From the IMG/VR virus record IMGVR_UViG_3300031994_000015, positions 94,276-158,275 of that record: DNA of 64,000 nt. The stretch is one strand, 5' to 3'. Below are positions 11,376-57,113 of the stretch, in pieces. The translations under genes and the position numbers were made by a program. The stretch comes from a virus (lineage: Duplodnaviria > Heunggongvirae > Uroviricota > Caudoviricetes). Every line of letters begins with the position of its first letter. The stretch's first letter is position 1. The notes below the pieces were generated by a model. That model made no database searches. It saw only the letters and a program-made list of their open reading frames with translations, and was not told where the DNA came from.

Positions 11376-11795
11376 ATGAAAGAAATATCTCAATGGTTAT
11401 TTGAACATATCAATACACCTAAAACTACTAAAGCCTTTGTAATAATCAAACCTGGATTTTTAGATTATACACAAGAAATTTATGATTACATTAAAGAAAA
11501 AGGTTTTGAAATGTATGATCATACTAACAAACAACAACTTAGTGATTGGCAAATAAAAGAACTTTATAAGATGCATAAAGATAAAGATTTCTATAAAGAT
11601 CTTTGTGAATATATGAAAGGATATATTGAAGCATCTATTTGGGGTTATGAAGGTTCAAAAGATCCAATTAAAGAGATGGATAAAATCAAAGATCATTTTA
11701 GGGATAAATATGGTAAAGATGATATGAGAAATGTTATGCATAGTTCAGATTCAAAAACAAATGTAATGAGAGAAGCAAAATTAATATTTAATTAA
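11376..11795 (+). CDS. ndk: nucleoside diphosphate kinase
   Basis: AFVIIKPGF (NDK IKPDG region) and NVMHSSDSKTNVMREAKLIF (NDK HGSDS...E..LWF C-terminal signature); spacing is consistent along the whole length. Confidence 0.75.
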   Translation: MKEISQWLFEHINTPKTTKAFVIIKPGFLDYTQEIYDYIKEKGFEMYDHTNKQQLSDWQIKELYKMHKDKDFYKDLCEYMKGYIEASIWGYEGSKDPIKEMDKIKDHFRDKYGKDDMRNVMHSSDSKTNVMREAKLIFN

Positions 11796-35618: not shown

Positions 35619-36953
35619 ATGAATATATCTATTGTTGGTACTGGTTATGTTGGCTTAGTAACTGGTACTTGTTTTGCCGAAATGGGACATAATGTACATT
35701 GTATAGATATCAATAAAGAAAAGATTTATAAATTAAATAATGGTATTATACCTATTTATGAGCCAGGATTAGAAGAATTAGTAAAAAAGAATATACAAGC
35801 TGAAAAATTATTTTTTGATGATGATTATAAATCTATAGAATATGCAGATGCTGTATTTTCAGCTGTTGGTACTCCACCGGATGAAGATGGTTCAGCTGAT
35901 TTACAATATGTATTAGCTGTAGCAAAAGAGTTTGCTAAGTATATTAAGAAACATTCTTTAATTATTACTAAATCAACAGTACCAGTTGGAACAGCAGAAA
36001 AGGTTCGTAAAGTTGTACAAGATACATTGAAAGAATTGAATAAAGAAGTAGAGTTTGAAGTTGTTTCAAACCCAGAATTTTTGAAAGAAGGTTCAGCTAT
36101 TGAAGACTTTATGAATCCTGATAGAATAGTTATAGGTTGCGATATGGAATATTCTAAGATGATTATGCAATCTATTTATAAAAAATTCCCAGACGAAAAA
36201 TTAGTATTTACAACTATTCCATCAGCTGAAATGATAAAATATGCTGCTAATTCTATGTTAGCTGTTCGTATTTCATTTATGAATGATATCGCTAATCTTT
36301 GTGATAAAGTTGGTGCTAATGTAGAAGATGTAGCTAAAGGTATAGGTATGGATTCTCGTATAGGACCAAAATTCTTACAAGCTGGTTGTGGATATGGTGG
36401 TTCATGTTTTCCTAAAGATGTAAAAGCACTTATTAAAACTGGAGAGCAAAATAATATAGATATGAAAGTTATTAAAGCAGCTGAAGCTACTAATAATTCA
36501 CAAAAACATATCCTTTATGATAAATTATATAAAGCATCTTCAAGAGTTGATTATCAAATAAAGAATATTACAATATTGGGTACTGCATTTAAACCTAATA
36601 CCGATGATATGAGAGAAGCTACTTCAGTTGTATGTTTAAATGATTTATTGAATGATAATCAAAAATTAGGACCATTTGATAAGATTAAGATATATGATCC
36701 AATAGCATTAGGTGAAGCTAAAAGAATAATAGGTGAATCAAATGAGAAGATTGAATATTATAATGAATTAGATAAAGCTATTATAGATGCAGATGCAATA
36801 ATTATTGTTACTGAATGGAAACAAATTAAAGAAATGTCTTTAGAGGTTGCAAAAAAATTAATGAGAGGTAACATAATTATAGATGGAAGAAATATATTTA
36901 ATAGAAAAGAATTAGAGAAATTAGAATTTATATATGAAGCTATAGGAAAATAA
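35619..36953 (+). CDS. ugd: UDP-glucose 6-dehydrogenase family (UDP-glucose/GDP-mannose dehydrogenase)
   Basis: N-terminal GTGYVGLVTGTCFAEMGH Rossmann motif and catalytic GCGYGGSCFPKD motif. Confidence 0.85.
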   Translation: MNISIVGTGYVGLVTGTCFAEMGHNVHCIDINKEKIYKLNNGIIPIYEPGLEELVKKNIQAEKLFFDDDYKSIEYADAVFSAVGTPPDEDGSADLQYVLAVAKEFAKYIKKHSLIITKSTVPVGTAEKVRKVVQDTLKELNKEVEFEVVSNPEFLKEGSAIEDFMNPDRIVIGCDMEYSKMIMQSIYKKFPDEKLVFTTIPSAEMIKYAANSMLAVRISFMNDIANLCDKVGANVEDVAKGIGMDSRIGPKFLQAGCGYGGSCFPKDVKALIKTGEQNNIDMKVIKAAEATNNSQKHILYDKLYKASSRVDYQIKNITILGTAFKPNTDDMREATSVVCLNDLLNDNQKLGPFDKIKIYDPIALGEAKRIIGESNEKIEYYNELDKAIIDADAIIIVTEWKQIKEMSLEVAKKLMRGNIIIDGRNIFNRKELEKLEFIYEAIGK

Positions 36954-45320: not shown

Positions 45321-45387
45321 CACACAGGTTAACTTTTATTAACTTATTTGAAAGATATTTATAATTGTTAATAAAAGTTAACCTGTG
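45321..45387. terminator. bidirectional terminator: perfect 21-bp inverted repeat (cacaggttaacttttattaac / gttaataaaagttaacctgtg) with a 23-nt loop
   Basis: Sits between the convergent genes 44973(+) and 45397(-). Confidence 0.6.
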
Positions 45388-45396
45388 GGCATTCTG

Positions 45397-46191
45397 TTAT
45401 TCTTCTCCTTTATCTTGTGATATTTCCCAAGAGTGTTCTACATAATTTGGTTCTTTTGTAGTAATATCTAAACCGAATTCATATTTTAAATCATGTGTCT
45501 CTTGGGTATATCCATATTTGTTCATCAAACGATAAGAATCATTAAATGTTTGGAATATTTTCCAAATCTTAGATGGAGAGTCTTCTTTAGGTATTCCACC
45601 ATTTTTATAATATTCAAAGTCTGCTAATTTCTTGAAATCTTTGAATTGAAGTTCACCATCAGTAATATATTCTGCAGCTTTACCTAATTGTTTAATTCTT
45701 CTATTTAATACTAAATTAATATATTCTCGTTTGGTAGCAGAATCATTCATTATTTGTTCAAATTCTGCTGATTTATAATCAGTAAATGGCTTATATTCTT
45801 GATTATCTTCATCTGTAATCTTTAATTCATCACCATTCATATAAGATTCTAAGAAAGAATGTCTGATATTTGTAGTAAATAATCTTTGTTCAAAATCTTC
45901 TGAGAATTTTTCAATTGCTTTATCATGCAATTTATCATTATTCTTTAATGAACAAATTCTTACAAATTCAAGATATGTAGGCTTATCAATTGGTGTCAAT
46001 TCTAATGCCTTTACATAATCTACTTCTTTAATTTCTTTTAATTGTTCATCAACTAATTTATGAGTATCATTAGCGGCATCAATAAGCTTATGTATTTGCT
46101 CATTAATAGTTAAACCTTCTAATTTTAACTCTTCATTAAACTTCTCATAAAATTTCTTCAATTTTTGTTGTGGATCTACTTTTCTTGCCAT
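45397..46191 (-). CDS. hypothetical protein (264 aa)
   Basis: Last gene of the minus-strand block. Confidence 0.55.
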   Translation of the reverse strand: MARKVDPQQKLKKFYEKFNEELKLEGLTINEQIHKLIDAANDTHKLVDEQLKEIKEVDYVKALELTPIDKPTYLEFVRICSLKNNDKLHDKAIEKFSEDFEQRLFTTNIRHSFLESYMNGDELKITDEDNQEYKPFTDYKSAEFEQIMNDSATKREYINLVLNRRIKQLGKAAEYITDGELQFKDFKKLADFEYYKNGGIPKEDSPSKIWKIFQTFNDSYRLMNKYGYTQETHDLKYEFGLDITTKEPNYVEHSWEISQDKGEE

Positions 46192-46469
46192 ATTATCATT
46201 TTTCTATTTTTATACAACAATCTCTTGAACATTGATCTTTGTAATAGTCATAAAATTTACACATATTAAATTTACACATATTACTTTCTTCTCTATCAAG
46301 ATTTTCCATGTTTCAAACCTAATTTATAAAATTCTTCTGCAAATTCTCTATAAACACCAGAATCTAATGTTGAACTACTATCTATATGATAATTCCAACA
46401 CATTTTTCTAAATTCATTTTCAAATTCTTCTCCCATATAAGTCACTTAACATAGTAAGAAACAAATTTT

Positions 46470-46706
46470 TTAATTTTCATTTCTATACTTTTTTAACCAA
46501 TTAGCAATTTTTTTATTATATGATTGAACTAATATTAAAATAGTAAATACAAGTATAAAAAATAAATTTGTAATTGTAACATCACCAAATACTTTCATAG
46601 TGATAATATTACTTACAAGCCATGATGACCATATAGTCCAAAATACTAAATCTTTATTGGTTCTTATTAGTTTACCAGGTTTTATTATATTCATATTACT
46701 TTTCAT
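46470..46706 (-). CDS. small membrane protein (two predicted TM helices)
   Basis: 78-aa hydrophobic ORF. Confidence 0.4.
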   Translation of the reverse strand: MKSNMNIIKPGKLIRTNKDLVFWTIWSSWLVSNIITMKVFGDVTITNLFFILVFTILILVQSYNKKIANWLKKYRNEN

Positions 46707-46965
46707 CTAAAAGAGCATCTAAATATCTCCATCTTACAATTCCATCCTTGTCACAGAAATAATCATCTGCTTCTTCATCATCCGAACATTCTTCTGTTAC
46801 GTTCCAATATCTAATTCCAAAGAATCCAACATCTTCAACTAAACAAGGAATTTGTGGATAGTGTTTATTTTCATATTGTCCAAATATTTGAGGATATTCT
46901 CCCTTTTCTGTATAATGCCATTTATTATCCATATTAATAATTATATTTATATTTTCATAATACAT
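46696..46965 (-). CDS. hypothetical protein
   Basis: 89-aa ORF. Confidence 0.4.
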   Translation of the reverse strand: MYYENINIIINMDNKWHYTEKGEYPQIFGQYENKHYPQIPCLVEDVGFFGIRYWNVTEECSDDEEADDYFCDKDGIVRWRYLDALLDEK

Positions 46966-47156
46966 TTTCCTTTACATCCCCATGTTGCAAAATCCCAATC
47001 TTTATCTTTTGGTTGAATATATGCATTACCTGCATGGAACATTTTAATTATACCTTCACAAAGTTGTATTTTTCCTTTACTACCATCTTGTTTAAATACA
47101 AATATTACTTCATCTCCTTCTTTTAATTCTTTTCCTTTAAAATCTTTCATAATCAA
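46947..47156 (-). CDS. hypothetical protein
   Basis: 69-aa ORF. Confidence 0.35.
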   Translation of the reverse strand: MIMKDFKGKELKEGDEVIFVFKQDGSKGKIQLCEGIIKMFHAGNAYIQPKDKDWDFATWGCKGKCIMKI

Positions 47157-47184
47157 TTAGAATTTAGATTGTAAATATGTTGCT

Positions 47185-47679
47185 TCATAATCCAAGTTCC
47201 ATTTGTGTTGGTTGCTTTGGTTCATCGTATTCTGGAAGTTCTCCTCTGTCTCGTAAATAAGTAAGTCTAGAGCAGAACTCTTGTCTTGTAAGTACTGTCT
47301 CGGAACTTTTGTTTTTTCCAATAGAATGTTCCAAAGCCGCTCCATTTGTAGCTTGTAAAGCTTTATAGAAGCTTCCATTTTTATAAAGTCTATTGTAGGC
47401 TCTATTGAGGAGATTTTGGTATGCTTCTGAATCTCGTTTATATGTTCTTCCATTCCAATATAGTTCTTGTTTTTGATACCACTTCTTTTTCTTTCCTTTA
47501 AATTTTGCGGCCTTACCAACTAATGTACATACATATCTTTGCATTTCTATAGATTCAAATTTCAATGCTTGTAAAAATCCTTCCATAGATGCACATTCAA
47601 CACCATCTATTTCAAACGGATGTGGAGAAAAATTTGATAATGCCGCACTTGGATAACCATTTCCGCTTCCTATATCCAT
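47185..47679 (-). CDS. NADAR-domain protein (YbiA-like, DUF1768)
   Basis: LSNFSPHPFEIDGVECASMEGFLQALKF aligns with E. coli YbiA FSNFAAWPIKVDGKTWPTSEHYFQAQKF; conserved C-terminal region continues with ALEH. Confidence 0.65.
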   Translation of the reverse strand: MDIGSGNGYPSAALSNFSPHPFEIDGVECASMEGFLQALKFESIEMQRYVCTLVGKAAKFKGKKKKWYQKQELYWNGRTYKRDSEAYQNLLNRAYNRLYKNGSFYKALQATNGAALEHSIGKNKSSETVLTRQEFCSRLTYLRDRGELPEYDEPKQPTQMELGL

Positions 47680-47681
47680 AT

Positions 47682-48578
47682 CTATGAATTATATTTATTT
47701 AATTGTATTTCTTTAAATTCTTTAATCTGAGTATAATATTCTTTGAATAACTTAATTTTTTCTGGTGTTTTATTATTATACACAAAATAATGTTGACCGG
47801 TATATCTTGGTTCATAATTATTTACTTTTCTATCACATCTACCTCTTAAAGATTTATATTTAATATATTCTTCGGTAGATTTAGTTACATAATGACTTAA
47901 ATATGCTGTTTGATAATATTCTTTATTTATAAAAATTTGAGTATAATAACTATCACCTTTACCTTCCCTTATCTTTTTTGTAAAATTAAAATTACCTAAT
48001 ACATCACATACTTTAATTTTATATCCTTCTTGAAAATTTCCTAATTCTGGTTCATGTATACTATATAATTGAATAACTTCATTTAAATGCCCACGAATAA
48101 AGTATTTAATCCCATTAAAATAACTGAATTTAGTTGGTTTAGTAAATCTTTCTTTTACTGGTTTAGGTTCATAATGTATTTTTCCAGAATCTCCATAATT
48201 TTTCCAACAAAACAAAATAGAATCTGTATTTTGAAATATAGATTGATTTAGAAAATCTTTGATATTTGTTTGTTTCTTTATTTCTACAAACTCATCTATA
48301 TCTATAAAACCTATCCAATCAAATTCTTCTTTTCTATTTTGATATATTTCTGCATAAAAAGTTTGTTGATATCCTAATTTATCATTTAAATTAACAAGTT
48401 CTACATATCCACTATCTATATAACTTTGAATAATTGGTTGTAATGGTATTTCATAATTACTATCATTATTATCTCCAATAATTATATGATCTACTCCAAT
48501 TTTTTTATGCCATTCAATCCATTCTTGAATATATAGTTCTTCCATTTTAGCAATGGCACAAATCCATATTTTATTCAT
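47682..48578 (-). CDS. glycosyltransferase, GT92-like (paralog B)
   Basis: CAIAKMEELYIQEWIEWHKKIGVDHIIIGDNNDS...FIDIDEF pattern; paralogous to 54864..55760. Confidence 0.5.
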   Translation of the reverse strand: MNKIWICAIAKMEELYIQEWIEWHKKIGVDHIIIGDNNDSNYEIPLQPIIQSYIDSGYVELVNLNDKLGYQQTFYAEIYQNRKEEFDWIGFIDIDEFVEIKKQTNIKDFLNQSIFQNTDSILFCWKNYGDSGKIHYEPKPVKERFTKPTKFSYFNGIKYFIRGHLNEVIQLYSIHEPELGNFQEGYKIKVCDVLGNFNFTKKIREGKGDSYYTQIFINKEYYQTAYLSHYVTKSTEEYIKYKSLRGRCDRKVNNYEPRYTGQHYFVYNNKTPEKIKLFKEYYTQIKEFKEIQLNKYNS

Positions 48579-49420
48579 TGAATATTAACATCTAAAAATT
48601 TATTTATTATATCATCATTCCAATTTAAATGGTTATATAATCTATTTCCTTCATTATTTGAAAAAAAAGTAAAAAATCCATTCATTTTTTTATTTATAAA
48701 TGCACCAGGAATTTTCCTTGTTCCATATACAATATTAATCTTATTGTTTTTTAATTTTAATCCATTTGGTAAATTTGTAGATTTAATAATTTTTCCTTCT
48801 GATGGGTGTTCTTCAAAATATTTTACTAAAAATGGATTAGTAAGTTTAGTATTTTTATAAACAGATTTATTATATATTCTAACTAATTGTATTTTTATCC
48901 CTTTATTAACAATTTCATTATATTTTTCTTCTCCAATAAAATTATTGTCATCTACTGTAAAATGAATAAAAATACCAAAAACATTTTTTTGTATCTCTAA
49001 AACTTTATTTATAAAATCATCTAAAGTTCCAAATGGTGCATGATATGCGGCATCAATAACTAATCTATTATTAAAAATTTTATTTAATTCAGTATAATAT
49101 TCAACTGATCCTGATAAATTAGTTTGTATCTTAATATCATTTATCAAATCGAAATCTATATATTTTACTAAATTCTTATAATATTTTAAATCTACTAATG
49201 CCGGTTCACCACCTTGGATATTTAAAAATATTGGTACTTCATATTTAGTTTTAATAGCATTAAATAACATCCCTATATTTTTATTAACAACATCTTGATT
49301 TTTATATAAATGTTTTAATCTATCTTTTTTGGTGAATCTCCAACCATTAGGGTTACAATATACACAAGGGAAATTACAATATTCAGCAGCTACTCTATAA
49401 TTTATAACTATTTTATTCAT
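48575..49420 (-). CDS. radical SAM enzyme
   Basis: CNFPCVYC (CxxxCxxC) near the N-terminus and IQGGEPAL SAM-binding motif. Confidence 0.65.
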   Translation of the reverse strand: MNKIVINYRVAAEYCNFPCVYCNPNGWRFTKKDRLKHLYKNQDVVNKNIGMLFNAIKTKYEVPIFLNIQGGEPALVDLKYYKNLVKYIDFDLINDIKIQTNLSGSVEYYTELNKIFNNRLVIDAAYHAPFGTLDDFINKVLEIQKNVFGIFIHFTVDDNNFIGEEKYNEIVNKGIKIQLVRIYNKSVYKNTKLTNPFLVKYFEEHPSEGKIIKSTNLPNGLKLKNNKINIVYGTRKIPGAFINKKMNGFFTFFSNNEGNRLYNHLNWNDDIINKFLDVNIQ

Positions 49421-49428
49421 TATTAATA

Positions 49429-49803
49429 TTATTCCATTATTTTATTATCCAAATATATTAAATTCTCTTTAATAGAATGTTCTTTAAAATATTCTTTAAC
49501 TTCTTTTAATATATTGTTTCTTTCATCTTTATTCCATTTCTTTGTTACTTTGCATGGCTTATCAATATCATATACACAAGTAATAAACTTTAATTTCTTT
49601 TCTTTATTATTTATGCATACCCAATAATAGTCATATCTATCTTCTGATAATCCTATTACATACCAAAATGTACCATCAAGATATTCTTTCCATTGTGATT
49701 CATCTTCAAAGAAAAACTTATAACAATTATCTATAATATGATTTGGTACTGGTGAAGCCCATGCTTTAGTATTTATTCTTTCAATAAATTGCTCTTTATT
49801 CAT
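49429..49803 (-). CDS. hypothetical protein
   Basis: 124-aa ORF. Confidence 0.45.
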   Translation of the reverse strand: MNKEQFIERINTKAWASPVPNHIIDNCYKFFFEDESQWKEYLDGTFWYVIGLSEDRYDYYWVCINNKEKKLKFITCVYDIDKPCKVTKKWNKDERNNILKEVKEYFKEHSIKENLIYLDNKIME

Positions 49804-50761
49804 AATTTAAATATAATGAATCTTTAACTTGATCTTTATTTTTGAATTCTTTATTAGACTTTGATCTAAGTTTCTTAAATGAACTATGACCCGCATCTAC
49901 ATATTCATGTCTTGTATAAAAATGTGGAATATTAGCTGTTCTATCTTCATCACCAGTTAATCCATCATAAGACAATAACCATTTAACATTTCTATCATTC
50001 ATATCCATAATGGTTTTCCAAAATAAATCCGTATCAAAACCATTACAAAAATATAAACCACCTGTATTTTCATAAGGTGGATCCATATATACTAAATCAC
50101 CAGATTTAGCATTACAAATCACTTCATTATAAGATTTATTTATAAATTCTATAGTTCCTCCATTATCTATAAATGAATCAATAACTAATGCCCACGAATC
50201 AAATACTGATCTTAATTCTTCAGGTGTTATACCAAATCTACCAGCCACATGAAACGATGCATTAAAATGATTATTCTTTGGGTTATATCTTATAAGTCCA
50301 TTAAAACAAGTACGAGTAATCCAATAGAAAATCATTGAACGTTCTTGACTATGGTCATTTTTATCTATCAAATCATTATATTTCTGACGCATCTCATAAT
50401 ATAATGTTTGTATTTTTTGAACATCTTCTCTTGTAATATCAGTTCCTTCTATATAATTACATCTTTCTTTTAATTGTTTATGTAAATTACAATAAAAATT
50501 ATAAAGTTCTTCTCTTGTATCTTTTCCTTTTAAAAGATTCCAAATAGCAATCAAATCATAATTAATATCACTGCATATGATATGATTGCATTTAATTTCT
50601 TCTTCATAAATTTTATTTAACAATTCATGTAATACTGATGCTCCTCCTAAGAAACATTCATAATATGTATCAATTTCTCTTGGAAACTGACTTACTATAT
50701 ATGGTGCTTGTTTACGCTTACTACCTGACCATTTGATAAAAGGTGTCTTACTTGTTTTCAT
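49796..50761 (-). CDS. dam: DNA N6-adenine methyltransferase, Dam (D12 class) family
   Basis: FIKWSGSKR (Dam motif FxKWAGGK region) and VYMDPPYENTGG (DPPY catalytic motif). Confidence 0.7.
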   Translation of the reverse strand: MKTSKTPFIKWSGSKRKQAPYIVSQFPREIDTYYECFLGGASVLHELLNKIYEEEIKCNHIICSDINYDLIAIWNLLKGKDTREELYNFYCNLHKQLKERCNYIEGTDITREDVQKIQTLYYEMRQKYNDLIDKNDHSQERSMIFYWITRTCFNGLIRYNPKNNHFNASFHVAGRFGITPEELRSVFDSWALVIDSFIDNGGTIEFINKSYNEVICNAKSGDLVYMDPPYENTGGLYFCNGFDTDLFWKTIMDMNDRNVKWLLSYDGLTGDEDRTANIPHFYTRHEYVDAGHSSFKKLRSKSNKEFKNKDQVKDSLYLNYE

Positions 50762-51095
50762 CTAATTTTGTAACTTTTTGATTTTCTTCTTTTGTTTTCT
50801 TTTCTAATGCCATATTTTGTTTACGAATATTCAATAAACAAATTTCTTCCATGGTTACTCCAAAATCAGTAGCCATATTAGTAATATAATATAAAATATC
50901 ACCTAAAGAAATAGCCACTTTCATAGAATCTTGCTTATCTATTTGGTGAGTTGGATCATCTAACAATTCTCTTATTTTTTGATTTAATTTTCCAAACTCT
51001 TCACCGATACCAAAAGTACAATAAAATGGCCCTATTTCCATAGGGTATTTAGCAAAATTTCTTACTTGAGCTTGATAATCATTAATCTCTAACAT
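50748..51095 (-). CDS. MazG-like nucleoside triphosphate pyrophosphohydrolase
   Basis: FGIGEEFGKLNQKIRE (EExGE) and LGDILYYITNMATDFGVTMEE resemble the MazG all-alpha NTP-PPase helices. Confidence 0.5.
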   Translation of the reverse strand: MLEINDYQAQVRNFAKYPMEIGPFYCTFGIGEEFGKLNQKIRELLDDPTHQIDKQDSMKVAISLGDILYYITNMATDFGVTMEEICLLNIRKQNMALEKKTKEENQKVTKLDENK

Positions 51096-51113
51096 ATATT
51101 AAATATAGTTAAT

Positions 51114-52913
51114 TTATATTTGCACATTTATAATTTTATAAGGGTAATGGTTATCCTCATAAATTTCAATCTTTTTATTACCTTGTAAAAATATTTTATT
51201 TGTTAAATATTTGTTATCAAAACAATCTATCATATCAAATAAAGTATATTCTTCTTTAAGATCTGATAATCCTAATCCTCTACCTATAGATTGCATATTG
51301 ATTACATTAGATTTGAATGATTCTAATAATACACCAAAACATAAATTTGAAAGTGTAATACCGGTTGACATTACTCCATAAGAAGCAATTAATATACAAT
51401 CATTATTATCTTTAAGTAATTGTTTTATCTCATCTCTTTTCTTAGTGCTAATTGCACCTGTTATAATAACAACATGTCTTTGTGGAAATCTTTTTGTGAC
51501 TATATCTGTTAAATAATTCAAATATGTAGTATGATGCCCTAATATCAAAGTATTGTTGGTACATATTGGTAAGATTTTATCACAAAGATAATTTATACGG
51601 GCTTCCATAAAATGAGTAACATATCTTTCAACAACTAAAGCATTTGAATTTTTAGAATCAGCTATAAATGACTTAAGTTCTTTCAAATATGCATTTAGTT
51701 TTTCTTCATACATTAAATCCTTTCTATCAATCGGCCCATTGAATATTTTAGCTTTTATTTCTAATAAACCTTGTGGAATTGTTTTAGCATATTTCAATTG
51801 GTGAATAGGATTCTCCAATTCTACTCTTTTTGTCTTGCCTGGTTTTTTTGGATCTGGTTCAGTAACAAAATCAGATACGGCATATTCAGCACAAGTCATA
51901 TAACATTCTTTAACAAATAACTTGTCTTTATAATGCATCCTAATTTGATTGATACGAACTTTAGAAATATAACCTTGTTCCATCAATTTATAAGGTTTAA
52001 TAATTTGAATTGTAGCGCCAATCAGTGATTTGAGACAAAAATAATCAATAGTATTTCTTTCTGGAATTGTACCTGTCATACCATAAGCTATCTTTACTTC
52101 TTTCATAAATGGTTGACTAATAATAGTCTTCATTTGATCAGCTGTAGCTCTATGTGTTTCATCAACAAATACAATATCATATCCATTAAAGAACTTCGGG
52201 TTATATTTTTTGTCTTTTTTATCTAAGAATTTAATAAGAGATTGAAATGTACCAATAGTTAGGTTAGCTGATTCTACTAATTTACCACCAGACCATATAC
52301 ATTCTGTTTTGAAAAATTCTTTATAGTCATTAAAGTCATTGTAACCTTGTTTTACTAAGTCAATAGAAGGAACAATCATAAGCATACGTTTAGCACCTAA
52401 ATATTCAACACAATATCTAAATACCATGTATGCTATAAGTGTTTTACCGGCACGAGTTGCTAATTCGGAAACTGATTGCCTCCAACAAAGGATTTTATAA
52501 GCTGAATCATATTGATAAGGTCTTGGAACTCTTGACATACCCCAACTATCAACAATTGCTTTAAACTCTTCAAATGAATGTTTGATTTTACGTTTAAAAA
52601 ATTGTTGATGATCCATTAACCCATCAAATTCTACTTTATTATCTCTAAAGAAAAGATATATTTCTTGCCAAAGTCCTATAGAACAATAATATATCTTTTG
52701 TCCTGTAGGTTGTACATAAGAAAATAAAAAATCTTGTGTAAATGGCTCTCTATTTCCATATGAAGCCAAATAACACATTGGATCAACTAAATTTAAATAA
52801 TCAGTTAAATTTACATGATCTTTATTTGAAGCTAACCAAAGGTCATCTTCTTGTGTATCAAATTTCAAAAATAAATATCTTTGATCTTCTTCTGAAAATA
52901 TAAAATGTATCAT
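51114..52913 (-). CDS. superfamily-2 DNA/RNA helicase (UvsW or ResIII-like)
   Basis: RPYQ, ATRAGKT (motif I), VFVDETH (motif II), MTGT (motif III), STGITL (motif V), QSIGRGLG (motif VI). Confidence 0.7.
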   Translation of the reverse strand: MIHFIFSEEDQRYLFLKFDTQEDDLWLASNKDHVNLTDYLNLVDPMCYLASYGNREPFTQDFLFSYVQPTGQKIYYCSIGLWQEIYLFFRDNKVEFDGLMDHQQFFKRKIKHSFEEFKAIVDSWGMSRVPRPYQYDSAYKILCWRQSVSELATRAGKTLIAYMVFRYCVEYLGAKRMLMIVPSIDLVKQGYNDFNDYKEFFKTECIWSGGKLVESANLTIGTFQSLIKFLDKKDKKYNPKFFNGYDIVFVDETHRATADQMKTIISQPFMKEVKIAYGMTGTIPERNTIDYFCLKSLIGATIQIIKPYKLMEQGYISKVRINQIRMHYKDKLFVKECYMTCAEYAVSDFVTEPDPKKPGKTKRVELENPIHQLKYAKTIPQGLLEIKAKIFNGPIDRKDLMYEEKLNAYLKELKSFIADSKNSNALVVERYVTHFMEARINYLCDKILPICTNNTLILGHHTTYLNYLTDIVTKRFPQRHVVIITGAISTKKRDEIKQLLKDNNDCILIASYGVMSTGITLSNLCFGVLLESFKSNVINMQSIGRGLGLSDLKEEYTLFDMIDCFDNKYLTNKIFLQGNKKIEIYEDNHYPYKIINVQI

Positions 52914-52915
52914 AA

Positions 52916-53533
52916 TTAAATTCTACCATTACTCCATAATTTAAACAATCCCCAAGGAGTAAATCTTTCCCAACTATTCTGTATTTCGTCTAATTCTTGT
53001 TCTTCTCTTTTTATTTCTGATTCCCTTATACTTCTTTTAACATTATGTAGTATATTATGATCCATTAGAAAGTTTTGTCTTATCCTTTCTTCATTTAACC
53101 AATGATTATGTTCTTGCTGATATAAGTTTTGCTCTTCATATAAATGAACACATAATTTAGAATCGGATTCTATAATAAAATAATCAAAATTAACAGTACA
53201 AAAAGATTCATCACTATCATAAGAAGTAAGCATTCCTACTTTTAATTCTAATGATTTTTTCTTTCTATATGTATTTTTATTTTCTTTAACTAATTCATAT
53301 AATATATAATTAGCCAAATTTCTTTTACAAAAACATTGTCTACCATCTATAGAATTATATAAAGCATCTTTATAAAACATTTCATTCAATTCATATTCAT
53401 TATTATTATTTTGCCCTATATAAAAATCTATTATACATGTTTGTCCAAATTCAGTACGAATATTTAATTTATCAATTTCAAAATAATGCCCATTTTTTTC
53501 ATTTAACAATAAGAATGGCCCTTGAAAATACAT
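52916..53533 (-). CDS. hypothetical protein
   Basis: 205-aa ORF. Confidence 0.5.
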   Translation of the reverse strand: MYFQGPFLLLNEKNGHYFEIDKLNIRTEFGQTCIIDFYIGQNNNNEYELNEMFYKDALYNSIDGRQCFCKRNLANYILYELVKENKNTYRKKKSLELKVGMLTSYDSDESFCTVNFDYFIIESDSKLCVHLYEEQNLYQQEHNHWLNEERIRQNFLMDHNILHNVKRSIRESEIKREEQELDEIQNSWERFTPWGLFKLWSNGRI

Positions 53534-53589
53534 ACTATTTTAACATATTTTTATATAAAATAGAAAAGAGTTGAATTTGTATTCAACTC

Positions 53590-54000
53590 TTAAAATAACT
53601 CTAATTGAGTATTTTCATATTTATATGTGTATAATTGTTTATGTCCTGGTGAATTATTCCAAACATAAAGTCTTTTAAAATATGCTTTACATAAATCCAT
53701 TGAATGTTTAGTTCCTTGTGATTTACCATCCCATATTGCAATACAAATATCACAATTTTTTATTATATCTTCATTACGTTTGAATCCAGCACTTTTACCA
53801 TATCTTGCCCAATTAGGTTTAAAAACTATAATTGGTATTCCATATTTATCTGCAAAATCAGCCCCATTACTATCTACTCCTATCGCACCACCAGAAACTA
53901 TTGTCACATCTTTATATGGAAGCTCTAATTGTTTCCATATATCTTCTAATAATTCTAAATCATTAATATTTCTTGATCCAACTATTGCAATCCTTTGCAT
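53590..54000 (-). CDS. SLOG-family (DprA/LOG-like Rossmann, DUF2493-type) protein
   Basis: IAIVGSRN...VSGGAIGVDSNGADFA...RNEDII...DICIAIWDGKSQGTKH matches the SLOG GG..G.D...A...RN...AfWDG.S.GT pattern. Confidence 0.5.
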   Translation of the reverse strand: MQRIAIVGSRNINDLELLEDIWKQLELPYKDVTIVSGGAIGVDSNGADFADKYGIPIIVFKPNWARYGKSAGFKRNEDIIKNCDICIAIWDGKSQGTKHSMDLCKAYFKRLYVWNNSPGHKQLYTYKYENTQLELF

Positions 54001-54275
54001 TCCTTTAATTCTCTTTCTATTTCATTATAAAACACATCTATAAATTCACCATAAGTGATATCAGACTTAATTAATAATTCATCATTAACTAATATTTTAC
54101 ATTTTCTTTCTATTTCTGATAACACTTCATACCAATCTAGTGGATCATGTAATAATTCTTTAACCATTATAAGATTTTCACCATTATTAACTTTAGAACT
54201 AAAAAATGTCTTTTCTAAACCAGATTGTTCTATAATTATATCATCAATTACTTTTTTTAATGTTTCCCTTTTCAT
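53982..54275 (-). CDS. hypothetical acidic protein
   Basis: 97-aa ORF. Confidence 0.4.
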   Translation of the reverse strand: MKRETLKKVIDDIIIEQSGLEKTFFSSKVNNGENLIMVKELLHDPLDWYEVLSEIERKCKILVNDELLIKSDITYGEFIDVFYNEIERELKECKGLQ

Positions 54276-54879
54276 ATAATTCGATAGCTTTATTAAAAGA
54301 TATTTTTTGTTTTAATTTATCTTCTACTCTAACATAACCGGAGTTGTCGTTGTAGAACAATAATGAGTAGATGCATTTCTTTGTTTTAAGGTTGTATACC
54401 AATTTGAAACAATTTCTTGGAATAAGATGATTATTAAGATCATAATCACAACCACCACAAATGATAAGTAAAGAGTCTTGTCGACTAAATTTCCTAATTT
54501 CCCCTTCATATTTTTTCCAAATTCCTCTATTAAGTTTTATAGTTTGAGGTATACAATTTATATAGTAAAATGTTGATTTCAATTTTTGTTTATTATTAGC
54601 AAAATCTTCAGCAGGAACTAAATGACCTCTATCATATCCAGATCTTATATAATTAAAATGTGGTAAATTGTTAAATGATTTGAATTGTAAATTAGTTCTC
54701 GATTCATTTCCACCACCTTGATATAACTTATAAATTACAAATGAAGAAGTTTGTATAGAAGAAGCATAATAACATTTATAATATTGCATGTCAATTATTT
54801 TATCATATTTCTCTATATTTTGAGAAAAACATAATATACAAACAAAAAATAATATTATAGTTATTATTTTCTTTCCCAT
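54244..54879 (-). CDS. secreted non-specific DNA/RNA endonuclease (NucA or Serratia nuclease family) with signal peptide
   Basis: N-terminal MGKKIITIILFFVCILCFSQN signal peptide, and YDRGHLVPAEDF matching the DRGH His-Me finger active-site motif. Confidence 0.65.
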   Translation of the reverse strand: MGKKIITIILFFVCILCFSQNIEKYDKIIDMQYYKCYYASSIQTSSFVIYKLYQGGGNESRTNLQFKSFNNLPHFNYIRSGYDRGHLVPAEDFANNKQKLKSTFYYINCIPQTIKLNRGIWKKYEGEIRKFSRQDSLLIICGGCDYDLNNHLIPRNCFKLVYNLKTKKCIYSLLFYNDNSGYVRVEDKLKQKISFNKAIELYEKGNIKKSN

Positions 54880-55760
54880 AATTTTTTTAATACTTGATTT
54901 TTTAAATATGTTTTAATTTGTTTCTTTTCATCTACTGATAAATTTATATTATTAGTAGGATTTTTAATTATTTTGTCATAACAACATATAATCTTGTTGA
55001 CAGATTGTATCTTATAAAAATATTTTTCTTTAGGTCCAGTAGCTCTACCTCTAAATATTTTTTCAACATATTCATCAAACGATTTATAAAAATAATGTAC
55101 TAATGTCACAGCACCAGGATCTATAATTCTCTCAGAACCGTGGATAACTGATGTTTGAACATTAATAATTTGGTAATTATCTCCTAATTTAATAATTGGT
55201 TTATATAATTCTTTATAAATTGGATAATGTAAAGATACTCTTTCAATATTATTTGAATATCTAAATATTGATTTTACCCCTGTAGAATAAGCACCATTAT
55301 GAATTTTATGAACAGTTTTAGTATAAAGTTCTTTATATGGAAGATTTACTTTATGATATAATGGAAAATTTTCAGAAATTCTATATTCCCATTTAACAAA
55401 AATATTATCAGTATCTTTAAATTCTTTTTGATTTAAGAATTCTTCAATATTTGAAAACTTATTTTTCAAATCTAAAAATTCATCACAATCAAAAACACAA
55501 TACCAATCATAATTATCTTTTTCTTGAAAATAAATGTTAGTATAAAATTTATGTTGAATATCTTCTATACCTTGATAATTGTAATATTGTACTTTACCAC
55601 TATCAATATATGGTTTTAATACTTTATATTGAACATTATTACCTACATCATTATTATCTCCAAAAAAGATTGTAGTTATTCCTAAATCTATATAATGATC
55701 TATAAATTCTAATAAATGTTCTTCTTCATTTTTTCCTACACATAATAATGCTATTTTCAT
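54864..55760 (-). CDS. glycosyltransferase, GT92-like (paralog A)
   Basis: CVGKNEEEHLLEFIDHYIDLGITTIFFGDNND...VFDCDEF; paralogous to 47682..48578. Confidence 0.5.
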   Translation of the reverse strand: MKIALLCVGKNEEEHLLEFIDHYIDLGITTIFFGDNNDVGNNVQYKVLKPYIDSGKVQYYNYQGIEDIQHKFYTNIYFQEKDNYDWYCVFDCDEFLDLKNKFSNIEEFLNQKEFKDTDNIFVKWEYRISENFPLYHKVNLPYKELYTKTVHKIHNGAYSTGVKSIFRYSNNIERVSLHYPIYKELYKPIIKLGDNYQIINVQTSVIHGSERIIDPGAVTLVHYFYKSFDEYVEKIFRGRATGPKEKYFYKIQSVNKIICCYDKIIKNPTNNINLSVDEKKQIKTYLKNQVLKKLWERK

Positions 55761-55975
55761 ATATGTAAATTTCTATAACCTAAATCCATCAATTCGAAAT
55801 TATAACGAAATATTTTACGCGTAGGACACATGTGATTGTAATCATAATATTCCATATACATTGGGCAGTAACCAGTATCTTTATGCCTCCACATACAATT
55901 ATAACACATAGGAAGCTCTCTATTAAGTCCTATGTCGGATTTAGGTTTTAATATTATTTTTTTCTTTTTTGCCAT
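55757..55975 (-). CDS. small Cys/His-rich protein (possible zinc-binding)
   Basis: CYNC...H...YC...HMC within 72 aa. Confidence 0.4.
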   Translation of the reverse strand: MAKKKKIILKPKSDIGLNRELPMCYNCMWRHKDTGYCPMYMEYYDYNHMCPTRKIFRYNFELMDLGYRNLHI

Positions 55976-56036
55976 TTTTTAAAAATAAAAATGCATAAAC
56001 AAATGTTTATGCATTTTCATCAAAAATAATAAATCT

Positions 56037-56558
56037 TTAAGCTTTTTCTGTATCTTCTACTTTACCAATTGGTGTATTCTTTTGAATTTTATCAATCAAA
56101 ACATTATGTTTTGAAGCTACATCATAAACTTTTTCAGTAGTCTTTACATAAGCTTCACGAATTGGTTCAAAATACTTATTGATAGCAACTACAGCTGCCC
56201 ATTCATCATAACCACTAAATGTAGCTTCTCCTAAAGCACGAAGAGTTCCATCAAGCATTGGGTAGGTAACCTTACCAGGATTTTTCTTTTCATCCCAAAA
56301 ATCATACATTGATACCATTCCAAGAGTAAATTGCCATTGAACTGTTTTCTTATCAAGAATTGTATGAATAGCTTTAGCTACAACAGCATAATTTTCTTTA
56401 GGTAAATCAAATTCAGTTTCACTTACTTCTTTATCAATTCCTTCTGCCTCTTTAATTACTTCTTGTTCAAGCGCTTGTAATTCTTCTAATGTTTTTCCTT
56501 CAAGTGAAGCTTCAAATTCTTTTAATTGTTTTTGCTTTTCTTGTGGATCTATTACCAT
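56037..56558 (-). CDS. hypothetical acidic coiled-coil protein
   Basis: 173-aa ORF. Confidence 0.5.
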   Translation of the reverse strand: MVIDPQEKQKQLKEFEASLEGKTLEELQALEQEVIKEAEGIDKEVSETEFDLPKENYAVVAKAIHTILDKKTVQWQFTLGMVSMYDFWDEKKNPGKVTYPMLDGTLRALGEATFSGYDEWAAVVAINKYFEPIREAYVKTTEKVYDVASKHNVLIDKIQKNTPIGKVEDTEKA

Positions 56559-56591
56559 AATAAATTAAAAATATATTTTTAACTTTGTCCA

Positions 56592-57113
56592 TTAAAGAAC
56601 AAATATAAATAAACATAGAACTATTAATGCATAAAATACAATATGTCCTAAAACTTTTTTCCAATATTTAGCAAATAATTTTCTTGAAACAATATCAAAA
56701 ATCAATAAATAATTATCTGCATTTGCAGGACCAACATGCTTAAATTCTAAATCAATATAATCATAAAGTTTTTCGATTTTAAATAATTCAGCAATCAACA
56801 TTAATTGTTTATGGGCCCAATATTGTACTTGGTCATTATTATTTGTATTTTCACCATCTAATACAATAACCATGTTATTTATATTGATTTTTCCATTTAT
56901 ATCTATTAAAGGATTAATAACTCCATATAATCTTCCTAACCAATCTGAATCTACATCTATATTCAAATATTTCTTCAAGACTTTTTTAAAAGCATCTGAA
57001 TAAAAAGTATCACTAACATAATGATAGTCTTTTATATATCGATATGTGTAATAAATTGCTTGGGATAATTTATATGTTAATGTTTGTTCAAATATTTTCT
57101 TGAATATGTTCAT
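56592..57113 (-). CDS. hypothetical protein with C-terminal TM helix
   Basis: 173-aa ORF; first gene of the minus-strand block. Confidence 0.5.
   Translation of the reverse strand: MNIFKKIFEQTLTYKLSQAIYYTYRYIKDYHYVSDTFYSDAFKKVLKKYLNIDVDSDWLGRLYGVINPLIDINGKININNMVIVLDGENTNNNDQVQYWAHKQLMLIAELFKIEKLYDYIDLEFKHVGPANADNYLLIFDIVSRKLFAKYWKKVLGHIVFYALIVLCLFIFVL

What the first reader, a model, noticed from the sequence alone, without database searches (positions are those of the whole stretch)
45397..57113. Minus-strand accessory island enriched in candidate anti-defence and nucleic-acid-modification functions
A single co-directional block encodes the following genes.
- A secreted NucA-type nuclease.
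- A SLOG-family protein.
- An SF2 helicase.
- A MazG-like NTP pyrophosphatase.
- A Dam methylase.
- A radical SAM enzyme.
- Two paralogous GT92-like glycosyltransferases.
- A NADAR-domain protein.
- Several Cys-rich or uncharacterised small proteins.

Dam methylation, a MazG-type activity that could clear canonical dNTPs, glycosyltransferases, a radical SAM enzyme and a separately encoded UDP-glucose dehydrogenase at 35619 fit a DNA or virion glycosylation/hypermodification scheme. NADAR and SLOG domains are linked to ADP-ribose and nucleotide-signal conflict systems. Taken together, the block reads like a counter-defence island rather than core replication machinery.
Basis: inference. Interest (0 to 1): 0.7.

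Follow-up and report, generated by a model that had tools for sequence, protein, structure and literature searches.

The report
Mosaic accessory-gene block in jumbo phage
This stretch of a large T4-like phage is a conserved set of DNA-handling genes into which swappable extra genes have been inserted, one of which belongs to a proven anti-defence family, but it is not a coordinated DNA-hypermodification system.

Summary
The 20 co-directional minus-strand ORFs at 45397-57113 are real, and all nine domain calls were recovered, with corrections.
- The SF2 helicase is a UvsW homologue, a core T4-type recombination gene.
- The NADAR protein is a full-length member of the T4 gp30.3/AdfN family, a proven anti-DarTG1 DNA ADP-ribosylglycohydrolase, with both catalytic residues kept.
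- The radical SAM enzyme has the right fold and motifs but fits no named subfamily and lacks auxiliary-cluster cysteines.
- The MazG-like protein has the fold but an incomplete, poorly conserved metal-binding tetrad.

Four related metagenomic phages show a mosaic. 173a, 173b, the 72-aa Cys protein, the 97-aa ACP-like protein, UvsW, the MazG-like protein, Dam and the 264-aa protein occur in all four. NucA and SLOG occur in three. Both glycosyltransferases, the radical SAM, AdfN and the small ORFs come and go independently as gene-precise cassettes. Other relatives carry an NDP-sugar dehydratase, GT4 or GT25 in these slots.

AdfN is 95% identical to the copy in a 473-kb megaphage whose Dam is only 42% identical, which indicates recent transfer.

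The integrated DNA-hypermodification scheme is not supported. I read this as a T4-type plastic region: one homology-validated anti-defence gene, an orphan Dam, and a variable glycan toolkit that most likely acts on non-DNA targets.

The parts
56592..57113 (-). 173-aa conserved unknown protein ('173a') with a hydrophobic C-terminus; backbone gene
   Evidence: No Pfam or PHROG hit. Orthologues in L001, L014, L016 and L017 at 45-92% identity.
56037..56558 (-). 173-aa conserved unknown protein ('173b'); backbone gene, followed by a hairpin
   Evidence: No family hit. Orthologues in all four relatives at 54-93% identity. Hairpin seen in the upstream sequence of the next gene.
55757..55975 (-). 72-aa four-Cys small protein; backbone gene at the left edge of cassette slot A
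   Evidence: Sequence. Orthologues in all four relatives.
54864..55760 (-). GT2: GT92-like GT-A glycosyltransferase; cargo in slot A
   Evidence: PF13704 4.8e-9 and PF01697 1.4e-6. Paralogue of GT1. Replaced by 52 bp in L001 and by an NDP-sugar dehydratase-like SDR in L014. GC 0.214.
54244..54879 (-). NucA-type non-specific nuclease with signal peptide; semi-conserved (3 of 4 relatives)
   Evidence: Endonuclease_NS 2.2e-26. DRGH motif present. Signal peptides in four orthologues. Absent from L016.
53982..54275 (-). 97-aa backbone protein, weakly ACP-like, with DPLD where carrier proteins have DSLD
   Evidence: phrog_5934, 1.3e-3. Orthologues in all four relatives. Motif read from the sequence.
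53590..54000 (-). SLOG-superfamily protein (YAcAr family), followed by a terminator-like hairpin at 53591-53566
   Evidence: PF10686 1.1e-12. Orthologue profile hits DprA at 4e-5 over residues 2-55. PADLOC ShosA 6.8e-7 and PsyrA 2.5e-5. Hairpin.
52916..53533 (-). 205-aa unknown protein; cargo in slot B
   Evidence: No family hit. Present only in L014; precisely absent from L001.
51114..52913 (-). UvsW-type SF2 helicase; core backbone gene
   Evidence: PDB 2oca (T4 UvsW) 6.4e-30. Pfam ResIII/DEAD/Helicase_C. Phage hits annotated UvsW. 63-87% identity in all four relatives.
50748..51095 (-). 115-aa MazG-fold protein with an incomplete catalytic tetrad; always immediately upstream of Dam
   Evidence: PHROG 229 2.6e-8. 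hhalign 92.9% against a true MazG. Acidic motif not conserved among orthologues.
49796..50761 (-). Dam-family N6-adenine DNA methyltransferase, with no cognate nuclease among the annotated genes of the block
   Evidence: PF02086 1.2e-27. TIGR00571 119.3 bits, above its cutoff. PADLOC type II and orphan MTase models. 639 homologues with E<1e-40.
49429..49803 (-). 124-aa unknown protein at the left edge of slot D
   Evidence: Orthologues in L001, L014, L016 and L013.
48575..49420 (-). Orphan radical SAM enzyme (core cluster only); cargo in slot D
47682..48578 (-). GT1: GT92-like GT-A glycosyltransferase; cargo in slot D
   Evidence: PF01697 1.4e-10. AF2 pLDDT 95.3. Best PDB hit is GalS1. D93/D95 DxD invariant. 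Present in L014 (62%) and L013 (52%), absent from L001, L016 and L017.
47185..47679 (-). AdfN (T4 gp30.3) family NADAR DNA ADP-ribosylglycohydrolase; mobile cargo
   Evidence: PF08010 1.5e-54. E33 and K40 align with T4 catalytic E36/K43. 95% aa and 91% nt identity to the megaphage L013 copy. About 70% identity to Vibrio and Klebsiella phage copies. Highest GC in the block, 0.349.
46296..47156 (-). Four small ORFs (69 aa DUF7205-like, 89 aa, 78 aa with hydrophobic segments, 49 aa); cargo
   Evidence: PF23835 on the L002 copy. All precisely absent from L001. The 49-aa ORF travels next to AdfN in L013.
45397..46191 (-). 264-aa conserved unknown protein; last gene of the block (backbone)
   Evidence: No hit in Pfam, PHROG, NCBIfam, PADLOC or by PDB profile search. 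56-89% identity in all four relatives.
45323..45387 (.). Perfect 21-nt inverted repeat between convergent genes; likely a bidirectional terminator
   Evidence: the repeat finder I12, 100% complementary. Sequence.
35619..36953 (+). UDP-glucose 6-dehydrogenase in the head-gene module, conserved at this position in relatives
   Evidence: Pfam three-domain match. NCBIfam NDP-sugDHase 430.8 bits. Same position in L015 and L016.

Best explanation
The block is a T4-type plastic region in a low-GC, T4-like jumbo phage. Its nearest phage relatives by capsid protein infect Bacteroidota.

Backbone. A conserved, operon-like set of genes is interrupted at about four fixed junctions by gene-precise, independently exchangeable cassettes. 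Eight backbone genes occur in all four close relatives: 173a, 173b, the 72-aa Cys protein, the ACP-like 97-aa protein, the UvsW helicase, the MazG-fold protein, Dam and the 264-aa protein. NucA and SLOG occur in three of the four.

Cargo in this phage. The inserted genes are two GT92-like glycosyltransferases, an orphan radical SAM enzyme, a 205-aa ORF, an AdfN (gp30.3) NADAR enzyme and four small ORFs.

Inferred mechanism, gene by gene, with no single pathway linking them:
- AdfN removes ADP-ribose that a DarT1-type toxin places on guanine in phage DNA. This rests on family membership and conserved catalytic residues; the activity itself was not tested.
- Dam methylates phage DNA at adenine. 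Its target sequence and its role are inferred.
- UvsW acts in recombination and fork remodelling.
- The secreted NucA degrades DNA outside the cytoplasm. Its role is inferred.
- The glycosyltransferases most likely build or decorate a non-DNA glycan, either host envelope polysaccharide or virion protein. They would draw on the conserved phage UDP-glucose dehydrogenase, and in relatives on an NDP-sugar dehydratase, GT4 or GT25. This fits a diversifying trait rather than a fixed DNA chemistry.
For: Backbone and cargo split: blastp table of the 20 proteins against five related loci, loci.

Gene-precise indels against L001:
- 55758-54864 (GT2) is absent from L001.
- 53555-52914 (the 205-aa ORF) is absent from L001.
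- 48564-46310 (GT1 through the small ORFs) is absent from L001.
- L001 instead has a 317-aa insert between UvsW and the MazG-like gene.

The same slot holds different sugar genes. Between the 72-aa Cys protein and NucA there is GT2 in the window, a dTDP-glucose dehydratase/UDP-xylose-synthase-like SDR in L014, and nothing in L001. L017 carries GT4-like and GT25 genes in other slots.

AdfN:
- PF08010 1.5e-54.
- The catalytic Glu and Lys are conserved.
- Family function comes from PMC11257639.
- 95% aa and 91% nt identity to the L013 copy, against 42% aa for Dam.
- GC of 0.349 stands out in the block.

UvsW. Dam.

GT fold neighbours all act on polysaccharide, teichoic acid or protein. Ugd is conserved in the head module of relatives.

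Iyer et al. 2021 (PMC7824862) describe the same sporadic, polymorphic glycosyltransferase pattern in jumbo phages. They interpret it as outer-polysaccharide modification.
Against: - No expression data. The promoter scan was uninformative (104 sites against 113.8 expected), so the timing and the operon structure are inferred only from gene spacing and three hairpins.
- The glycosyltransferase acceptor is unknown, and GT-A enzymes can act on DNA bases (trypanosome JGT; my own knowledge).
- T-even phages also vary their DNA glucosyltransferases between close relatives, so cassette variability alone does not exclude a DNA target.
- Only 64 kb of a phage of at least 158 kb was examined, so base-modifying enzymes could lie elsewhere.
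- Only four close relatives were compared.
- No repeats were found at the cassette junctions that would explain how the exchange happens.
Confidence: 0.65

Rival explanations
1. The block is a dedicated counter-defence island. Dam, a dNTP-clearing MazG, the two glycosyltransferases, the radical SAM enzyme and the distant Ugd cooperate to hypermodify or glycosylate phage DNA. NADAR and SLOG counter ADP-ribose and nucleotide-signal defences.
For: - All the named domains are present.
- AdfN is a genuine anti-defence family.
- A T4 gp1-like dNMP kinase and an NDK lie elsewhere in the window. These are compatible with modified-nucleotide metabolism, though not specific to it.
- Iyer et al. 2021 suggest that MazG-like enzymes could clear unmodified NTPs in jumbo phages.
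Against: - The GTs and the radical SAM are gained and lost independently in close relatives.
- The MazG-like protein lacks a complete ExxE...ExxD tetrad, and its acidic residues vary among orthologues.
- The Pfam scans of the window's ORFs returned no hydroxymethylase, TET/JBP, DpdA or Que enzymes.
- The GT's structural neighbours are not DNA enzymes.
- GATC, CATG and CTAG are strongly avoided in the window and in relatives.
- UvsW, Dam and the MazG-like gene are conserved backbone rather than island cargo.
- Ugd lies in the head-gene module, which by T4 analogy should be late.
Confidence: 0.1
2. Sub-hypothesis for the sugar genes. GT1 and GT2, with Ugd, remodel a host envelope glycan (LPS, capsule or a surface glycoprotein glycan) during infection. 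This would mask receptors and exclude superinfecting phages. The secreted NucA would add a second exclusion layer by degrading incoming DNA.
For: - Different GT families and an NDP-sugar SDR occupy the same slots in relatives. This polymorphism is typical of surface-glycan diversification.
- Structural neighbours include TarP/TarS, chondroitin and heparosan synthases, and GalS1.
- The GT4-like protein of L017 resembles an LPS GlcNAc transferase.
- The interpretation of Iyer et al. 2021.
- The NucA signal peptide is conserved.
Against: - No flippase, polymerase or Und-P-linked initiating transferase was seen.
- Seroconversion-type modification is mostly a trait of temperate phages (my own knowledge), and this looks like a lytic T4-like phage.
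- The host is unknown.
Confidence: 0.35
3. Sub-hypothesis for the sugar genes. The GTs glycosylate virion proteins (capsid, sheath or fibres) using UDP-glucuronate-derived sugars, as mycobacteriophages and chloroviruses do.
For: - Ugd is conserved inside the head-morphogenesis module, next to the gp21 protease and gp23, in the window, L015 and L016.
- Structural neighbours include protein and peptide glycosyltransferases (COLGALT1, LH3, SunS).
- The GTs have no signal peptide or membrane segment in the sequence.
Against: - The GTs lie on the opposite strand to the structural genes, among replication-type genes.
- L001 and L016 keep the same structural genes but have no GT in this region.
- There is no direct evidence of glycoprotein.
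Confidence: 0.25
4. There is no island. The block is simply the conserved replication, recombination and nucleotide-metabolism module of this phage lineage.
For: Eight genes are conserved, seven of them in the same relative order, in four relatives down to 66% Dam identity; the 264-aa gene lies elsewhere in L016. The helicase is a UvsW homologue.
Against: About 4.7 kb of the 11.7 kb is cargo that is absent from at least one close relative at gene-precise junctions. AdfN shows clear horizontal transfer.
Confidence: 0.05

Closest known systems
Hyperplastic (plastic) regions of T4-type phage genomes (core genome plus plastic periphery; my own knowledge of the T4 superfamily literature)
   Same: Conserved T4-like core genes are interspersed with small, lineage-variable ORFs and accessory genes that differ between close relatives. 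The region is transcribed opposite to the structural genes. It carries gp30.3, which in T4 sits in the 30.x accessory cluster.
   Different: No repeated promoter-stem-loop or other boundary repeats were found at the junctions. The cargo here is dominated by sugar-metabolism genes. The phage lineage is far from the Straboviridae (MCP at most 39% identical to any deposited phage).
T4 AdfN (gp30.3), an orphan NADAR antitoxin that counters DarTG1 (PMC11257639)
   Same: Full-length Pfam Phage_30_3 match at 1.5e-54. The catalytic Glu and Lys and the C-terminal helix region are conserved. It is a stand-alone gene in an accessory region.
   Different: Only 39% identical to the T4-type copy. It belongs to the subclade found in Klebsiella and Vibrio phages (67-70% identity) and has a 20-residue C-terminal extension. 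Activity, substrate specificity and the presence of DarTG in the host are untested.
Jumbo-phage and cyanophage glycosyltransferase clusters interpreted as outer-polysaccharide modification (Iyer et al. 2021, PMC7824862), and chlorovirus PBCV-1 UDP-glucose dehydrogenase with hyaluronan synthase (my own knowledge)
   Same: A virus-encoded UDP-glucose dehydrogenase together with paralogous, sporadically distributed glycosyltransferases that differ between related viruses.
   Different: The GTs here are scattered as single-gene cassettes among replication-type genes, not gathered in a sugar operon. They are GT92-like. No synthase or polymerase is present. The target is unknown.
T-even DNA glucosylation (alpha- and beta-glucosyltransferases acting on hydroxymethylcytosine; my own knowledge)
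   Same: A T4-like phage with variable glycosyltransferases, a Dam methylase and a gp1-like dNMP kinase.
   Different: The T4 enzymes have the GT-B fold, whereas these are GT-A and GT92-like. No dCMP hydroxymethylase or dCTPase was found among the scanned ORFs of the window. The MazG-like protein is catalytically doubtful. Restriction-site avoidance is present.

Membership tests
AdfN / T4 gp30.3 (NADAR superfamily) | Full-length match to Pfam Phage_30_3 above the gathering score | tested here: met
   184 bits against a cutoff of 36, E 1.5e-54, profile positions 1-138 of 138.
AdfN / T4 gp30.3 (NADAR superfamily) | Catalytic Glu and Lys (T4 E36 and K43), plus the C-terminal helix that is lost in inactive RB69 | tested here: met
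   E33 and K40 are invariant, seven residues apart, in an alignment with a T4-type copy and a Vibrio-phage copy. The C-terminal region aligns. Residue identities come from PMC11257639.
AdfN / T4 gp30.3 (NADAR superfamily) | DNA ADP-ribosylglycohydrolase activity and rescue from DarTG1 | not testable with these tools
   Requires biochemistry or plaque assays.
UvsW helicase (T4-type SF2) | Sequence homology to T4 UvsW across the helicase core | tested here: met
   The only PDB hits are 2oca (6.4e-30) and 1rif (1e-10). tblastn hits are annotated UvsW. Pfam gives ResIII plus Helicase_C.
Dam family N6-adenine DNA methyltransferase | Score above the curated family cutoff, with the DPPY catalytic motif | tested here: met
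   TIGR00571 119.3 bits against 114.85. PF02086 97.7 bits against 22. 'MDPPYE' is read in the sequence.
Dam family N6-adenine DNA methyltransferase | GATC target specificity | not testable with these tools
   GATC is depleted to 0.57 of expectation (z -6.1). This neither proves nor disproves GATC methylation.
Radical SAM superfamily | CX3CX2C cluster motif, GGE SAM-binding motif and a partial TIM-barrel fold | tested here: met
Named radical SAM subfamilies (STM4011, viperin, MoaA, QueE, SPASM/twitch maturases) | Score above the curated subfamily cutoff; auxiliary-cluster cysteines for SPASM/twitch | tested here: not met
   The best hit is STM4011 at 47 bits against a cutoff of 200; viperin scores 25 against 180. 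The protein has only three Cys, whereas its relatives have C-terminal Cys motifs. The C-terminal 210-264 is modelled with low confidence.
GT92-like GT-A glycosyltransferase | Pfam PF01697 above cutoff, a DxD motif and a GT-A fold closest to a GT92 structure | tested here: met
   GT1 scores 41.6 bits and GT2 28.5 bits against a cutoff of 23. D93 and D95 are invariant. The model has pLDDT 95.3 and its top PDB hits are GalS1 chains.
MazG NTP pyrophosphohydrolase | Family-level sequence match and a complete ExxE...ExxD metal-binding tetrad | tested here: inconclusive
   No Pfam hit at E 0.01. PHROG 229 2.6e-8. hhalign 92.9% against a true MazG. The motifs read EEFGK and SLGD, and the first acidic pair is lost in the L015 and L016 orthologues, with one of the two residues kept in L017.
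SLOG superfamily, YAcAr family | Pfam PF10686 above the gathering score | tested here: met
   48 bits against 28.2, profile positions 2-66 of 66. The orthologue profile hits DprA at 4e-5 over the N-terminal half.
ShosA / PsyrA-type antitoxin mimic | Full-length similarity to the DprA-like antitoxin | tested here: not met
   The PADLOC hits cover only residues 2-55. The PDB ShosA entry 9vzo scores E 0.41.
Serratia/Anabaena NucA-type non-specific endonuclease | Endonuclease_NS match and the DRGH active-site motif | tested here: met
   93.4 bits against 23. 'YDRGHLVP' and the downstream 'NCIPQ...NRGIW' are read in the sequence.
Phage DNA hypermodification pathway | A base-activating enzyme (hydroxymethylase, TET/JBP, DpdA or a Que enzyme) co-inherited with the transferases | tested here: not met
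   No such hit came from the Pfam scans, which covered most but not all ORFs of 90 aa or more in the 64-kb window. The transferases are not co-inherited. The rest of the genome was not available.

The most novel reading that the evidence does not exclude
The orphan radical SAM enzyme has only the core cluster. Its nearest solved folds include the sugar-nucleotide enzyme BlsE as well as MoaA and viperin. Together with the GT92-like transferases and the lineage-conserved phage UDP-glucose dehydrogenase, it could build a new UDP-glucuronate-derived sugar. That sugar would be attached to phage DNA or to virion proteins. On DNA, this would be a GT-A-based glycosylation chemistry not yet described for phages of Bacteroidota-type hosts.
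Probability: 0.1. Interest if true: 0.75.

Novelty: new member of a known kind. Interest (0 to 1): 0.35.

Why it matters
- The block places the experimentally validated anti-DarTG1 enzyme AdfN outside the enterobacterial T-even phages. It now appears in an uncultured low-GC jumbo-phage lineage.
- AdfN is moving as a cassette between very different large phages: 95% identity against a backbone that is only 42% identical.
- The block gives a clean natural experiment, with fixed junctions and swappable single genes. This could be used to find new accessory or counter-defence genes by looking at what occupies these slots in other phages.
- It cautions against reading a co-located list of suggestive domains as one pathway. 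Comparative presence and absence separates the parts.

Tried and rejected
- Megablast of the whole block against deposited phages found only a 59-bp match inside gp30.3. There is no close sequenced relative.
- tblastn of the radical SAM enzyme against phages found no match. PDB sequence search gave only noise.
- The word-indexed protein search found two homologues. The exhaustive HMMER search found 68. Their contigs were too short for context.
- Scanning IMG/VR viral contigs with Dam confirmed no relative.
- The afdb50 fold library was unavailable.
- The sigma-70 promoter scan was no better than shuffled sequence (104 against 113.8). It was rejected as evidence of timing.
- A search for repeats at the cassette junctions gave only AT-rich chance matches.
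- The idea that the SLOG protein mimics the ShosA or PsyrA antitoxins was considered after the PADLOC hits. It was set aside because only the N-terminal 55 residues match and the ShosA structure scores E 0.41.
- No tRNAs were found in the window.
- A profile of the 264-aa backbone protein found nothing in the PDB.
- A link between the radical SAM enzyme and the adjacent GT1 was rejected. L001 has the enzyme without GT1, and L014 has GT1 without the enzyme.

Full report
**What the window is.** The 64-kb window has 28% GC and encodes T4-type structural genes on the plus strand.
- These include a gp21-like prohead protease, a gp23 major capsid protein, a 1100-aa sheath and a tube protein.
- The capsid protein is at most 33-39% identical to any deposited phage. 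The best hits are an uncultured 462-kb phage, Sphingomonas phage PAU, Tenacibaculum and Chryseobacterium jumbo phages, and the Prevotella Lak megaphages.
- The whole block has no nucleotide-level relative among 50,697 deposited phages, apart from 59 bp inside one gene.
- The same sequence occurs on metagenomic contigs of up to 158 kb.
- The signal peptides end in FSQ, YSQ, YPQ or LGQ. Together with the capsid affinities this suggests a Bacteroidota host, which is an inference.

**Checking the observation.** Twenty tightly packed, often overlapping minus-strand ORFs fill exactly 45397-57113.
- On one side a perfect 21-nt inverted repeat at 45323-45387 separates them from the convergent plus-strand genes.
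- On the other side a 155-bp divergent intergenic region lies before a conserved 385-aa plus-strand gene.
- Hairpins after 56037 and after 53590 suggest three transcription units. This is inferred.

- NucA: Endonuclease_NS 2.2e-26 with the DRGH motif.
- SLOG: YAcAr family, 1.1e-12.
- SF2 helicase: ResIII, DEAD and Helicase_C domains.
- Dam: D12 class 1.2e-27, above the TIGR00571 cutoff.
- Two GT92-like glycosyltransferases: both above the Pfam cutoff, and paralogous at 32% identity, E 2e-24.
- NADAR: Phage_30_3, 1.5e-54.
- UDP-glucose dehydrogenase at 35619.
- Several small ORFs, some of them Cys-rich.

Two labels needed extra work.
- The radical SAM candidate has no Pfam, PHROG or PDB sequence hit.
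  - It does carry CX3CX2C and GGE motifs that are invariant in 48 distant homologues.
  - It hits several NCBIfam radical SAM models below their cutoffs.
  - It has only three cysteines, so it lacks the auxiliary-cluster cysteines of its relatives. It belongs to no named subfamily.
- The MazG-like protein has the fold. PHROG 229 gives 2.6e-8, and hhalign gives 92.9% against a true MazG in a relative.
  - Its metal-binding tetrad is incomplete, and the first acidic pair is not conserved among orthologues.

**Corrections to the labels.**
- The helicase is a UvsW homologue. T4 UvsW structures are its only PDB hits (6.4e-30), and phage hits are annotated UvsW. UvsW is core T4-type recombination machinery.
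- The NADAR protein is a member of the T4 gp30.3 family, renamed AdfN.
  - AdfN was shown to be necessary and sufficient to overcome DarTG1, by removing ADP-ribose from DNA. E36 and K43 are essential (PMC11257639).
  - In the window protein the equivalent E33 and K40 and the C-terminal helix region are conserved.

**Comparative anatomy.** Looking up homologues of the radical SAM, GT1 and Dam proteins gave related loci. A blastp table and a DNA comparison show a mosaic.
- Eight genes are present in all four close relatives (L001, L014, L016, L017; Dam 87%, 84%, 71% and 66% identical). They are 173a, 173b, the 72-aa Cys protein, the 97-aa ACP-like protein, UvsW, the MazG-like protein (always just upstream of Dam), Dam and the 264-aa protein.
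- NucA and SLOG are present in three of the four.

- GT2 occurs only in the window. At the same junction L014 has a dTDP-glucose-dehydratase/UDP-xylose-synthase-like SDR, and L001 has 52 bp.
- The 205-aa ORF occurs only in the window and L014.
- The radical SAM occurs only in the window and L001.
- GT1 occurs in the window and L014, and at 52% identity in the megaphage L013.
- AdfN occurs in the window, L017 and L013.
- L001 instead has a 317-aa ORF between UvsW and the MazG-like gene.
- L017 carries GT4-like and GT25 transferases, a true MazG and a DenV-like gene. Most of its block lies on the same strand as the structural genes.

The indels are gene-precise. No boundary repeats were found.

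**Horizontal transfer of AdfN.**
- The AdfN gene is 95% identical in protein, and 91% identical over 536 nt, to the copy in a 473-kb megaphage whose Dam is only 42% identical. An adjacent small ORF travels with it.
- AdfN is 67-70% identical to copies in Vibrio and Klebsiella phages, although the capsid protein is under 40% identical to any phage.
- It has the highest GC of the block, 0.349 against 0.20-0.31 for the other genes.

**The DNA-hypermodification idea.** Several lines of evidence count against it.
- The supposed partners are inherited independently.
- The MazG-like protein is catalytically doubtful.
- The Pfam scans covered most ORFs of 90 aa or more in the window and returned no base-activating enzyme. 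They found only a gp1-like dNMP kinase and an NDK, which are not specific.
- The high-confidence GT1 model (pLDDT 95.3) is closest to the GT92 galactan synthase GalS1. Next come COLGALT1, SpsA, SunS, TarP/TarS and the chondroitin and heparosan synthases. All of these act on polysaccharide, teichoic acid or protein.
- GATC (0.57, z -6.1), CATG (0.58, z -6.3) and CTAG (0.26) are strongly avoided in the window and in relatives. That suggests the DNA is still exposed to sequence-specific attack.

None of this excludes DNA glycosylation, because only part of the genome was seen and the acceptor is unknown.

**Most likely workings.** I read the region as a T4-type plastic region, meaning a conserved DNA-handling backbone with hot spots that collect single-gene cassettes.
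- Shown by family membership: AdfN, Dam, UvsW, the NucA nuclease fold and motif, the GT-A/GT92-like fold, and the radical SAM fold.
- Inferred: AdfN reverses DarT1-type guanine ADP-ribosylation. Dam protects or marks phage DNA. NucA acts outside the cytoplasm.
- Also inferred: the glycosyltransferases use sugars downstream of the conserved phage Ugd to decorate a non-DNA glycan. My estimates for the target are host envelope about 0.35, virion proteins about 0.25 and DNA about 0.1.
- The roles of the SLOG protein and the radical SAM enzyme remain open. The SLOG protein sits next to UvsW. It is predicted in the literature either to generate NAD-derived signals or, for the related DprA, to bind single-stranded DNA (PMC7824862).

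**Verdict.** The region is a new member of a known kind of phage genome feature. It contains one homology-validated anti-defence gene with clear evidence of recent exchange between large phages, and an unclassified orphan radical SAM enzyme. Interest is moderate to low (0.35).

Noticed in passing
window 24255-29146: A HAD-family hydrolase (24255-24899) is followed by a 665-aa protein whose N-terminal 180 residues resemble NadM-type NMN adenylyltransferase (NCBIfam 4e-8; Pfam CTP_transf_like). Its C-terminal ~480 residues are unassigned. Next come a 324-aa unknown and a 410-aa pol-beta-type nucleotidyltransferase. This could be an NAD+ salvage or reconstitution module, which would be an anti-defence theme outside the flagged block.
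   Followed up: partly
window, whole (also L001, L014, L016, L017, L013): GATC (obs/exp 0.57, z -6.1), CATG (0.58, z -6.3) and CTAG (0.26, z -7.3) are strongly under-represented, while other 4-mer palindromes are not. The pattern recurs in related phages. GATC avoidance is odd for a phage that carries a Dam-family methylase.
   Followed up: partly
window 57269-58426: A 385-aa plus-strand protein diverges from the block. It is conserved at this boundary in all relatives at 384-393 aa. By eye it has a sigma-70 region-2-like stretch (TFGQYAAWCIRNTILENIKQLSHVVRIP), but no Pfam hit.
   Followed up: no
window 17727-18803 and 11376-11795: A T4 gp1-like deoxynucleotide monophosphate kinase (DNMK, 3e-11) and a nucleoside diphosphate kinase (2e-17) lie among plus-strand genes upstream of the structural module.
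   Followed up: no
window 53982-54275: The conserved 97-aa protein is weakly similar to phage acyl carrier proteins (phrog_5934, 1.3e-3). It has DPLD where carriers have the DSLD phosphopantetheine-attachment motif, so it may be a non-carrier ACP-fold protein.
   Followed up: no
window 32739-34823 and 35619-36953: A 694-aa SPFH/Band-7 domain protein and the UDP-glucose dehydrogenase sit inside the head-morphogenesis module. Ugd keeps this position, just upstream of the gp21-like protease, in L015 and L016.
   Followed up: partly
L017 2715-15371; L016 10001-17011: The block is rearranged in relatives. In L017 most of it lies on the same strand as the structural genes. In L016 the Dam side is inverted relative to the UvsW side, and NucA and SLOG are missing.
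   Followed up: partly
L001 16454-18277: A 607-aa DUF7487 protein on the opposite strand lies next to the sheath gene, on the side where the window has the major capsid gene.
   Followed up: no
L013 10108-12435: The 473-kb megaphage that shares AdfN and a GT1 homologue has a family-B DNA polymerase carrying an intein (Pfam Intein_splicing) and a ClpP protease close by.
   Followed up: no
protein P0284: A Dam homologue at 55% identity lies on a 408-kb contig. NCBI labels it 'uncultured Methanobrevibacter sp.'. It is probably a low-GC megaphage contig binned into an archaeal MAG, and less likely a hint about host range.
   Followed up: no
L009-L011: A distant homologue of the radical SAM enzyme (41% identity) is followed directly by a class I SAM-dependent methyltransferase on three short contigs. 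The contigs are too short to judge the context.
   Followed up: no
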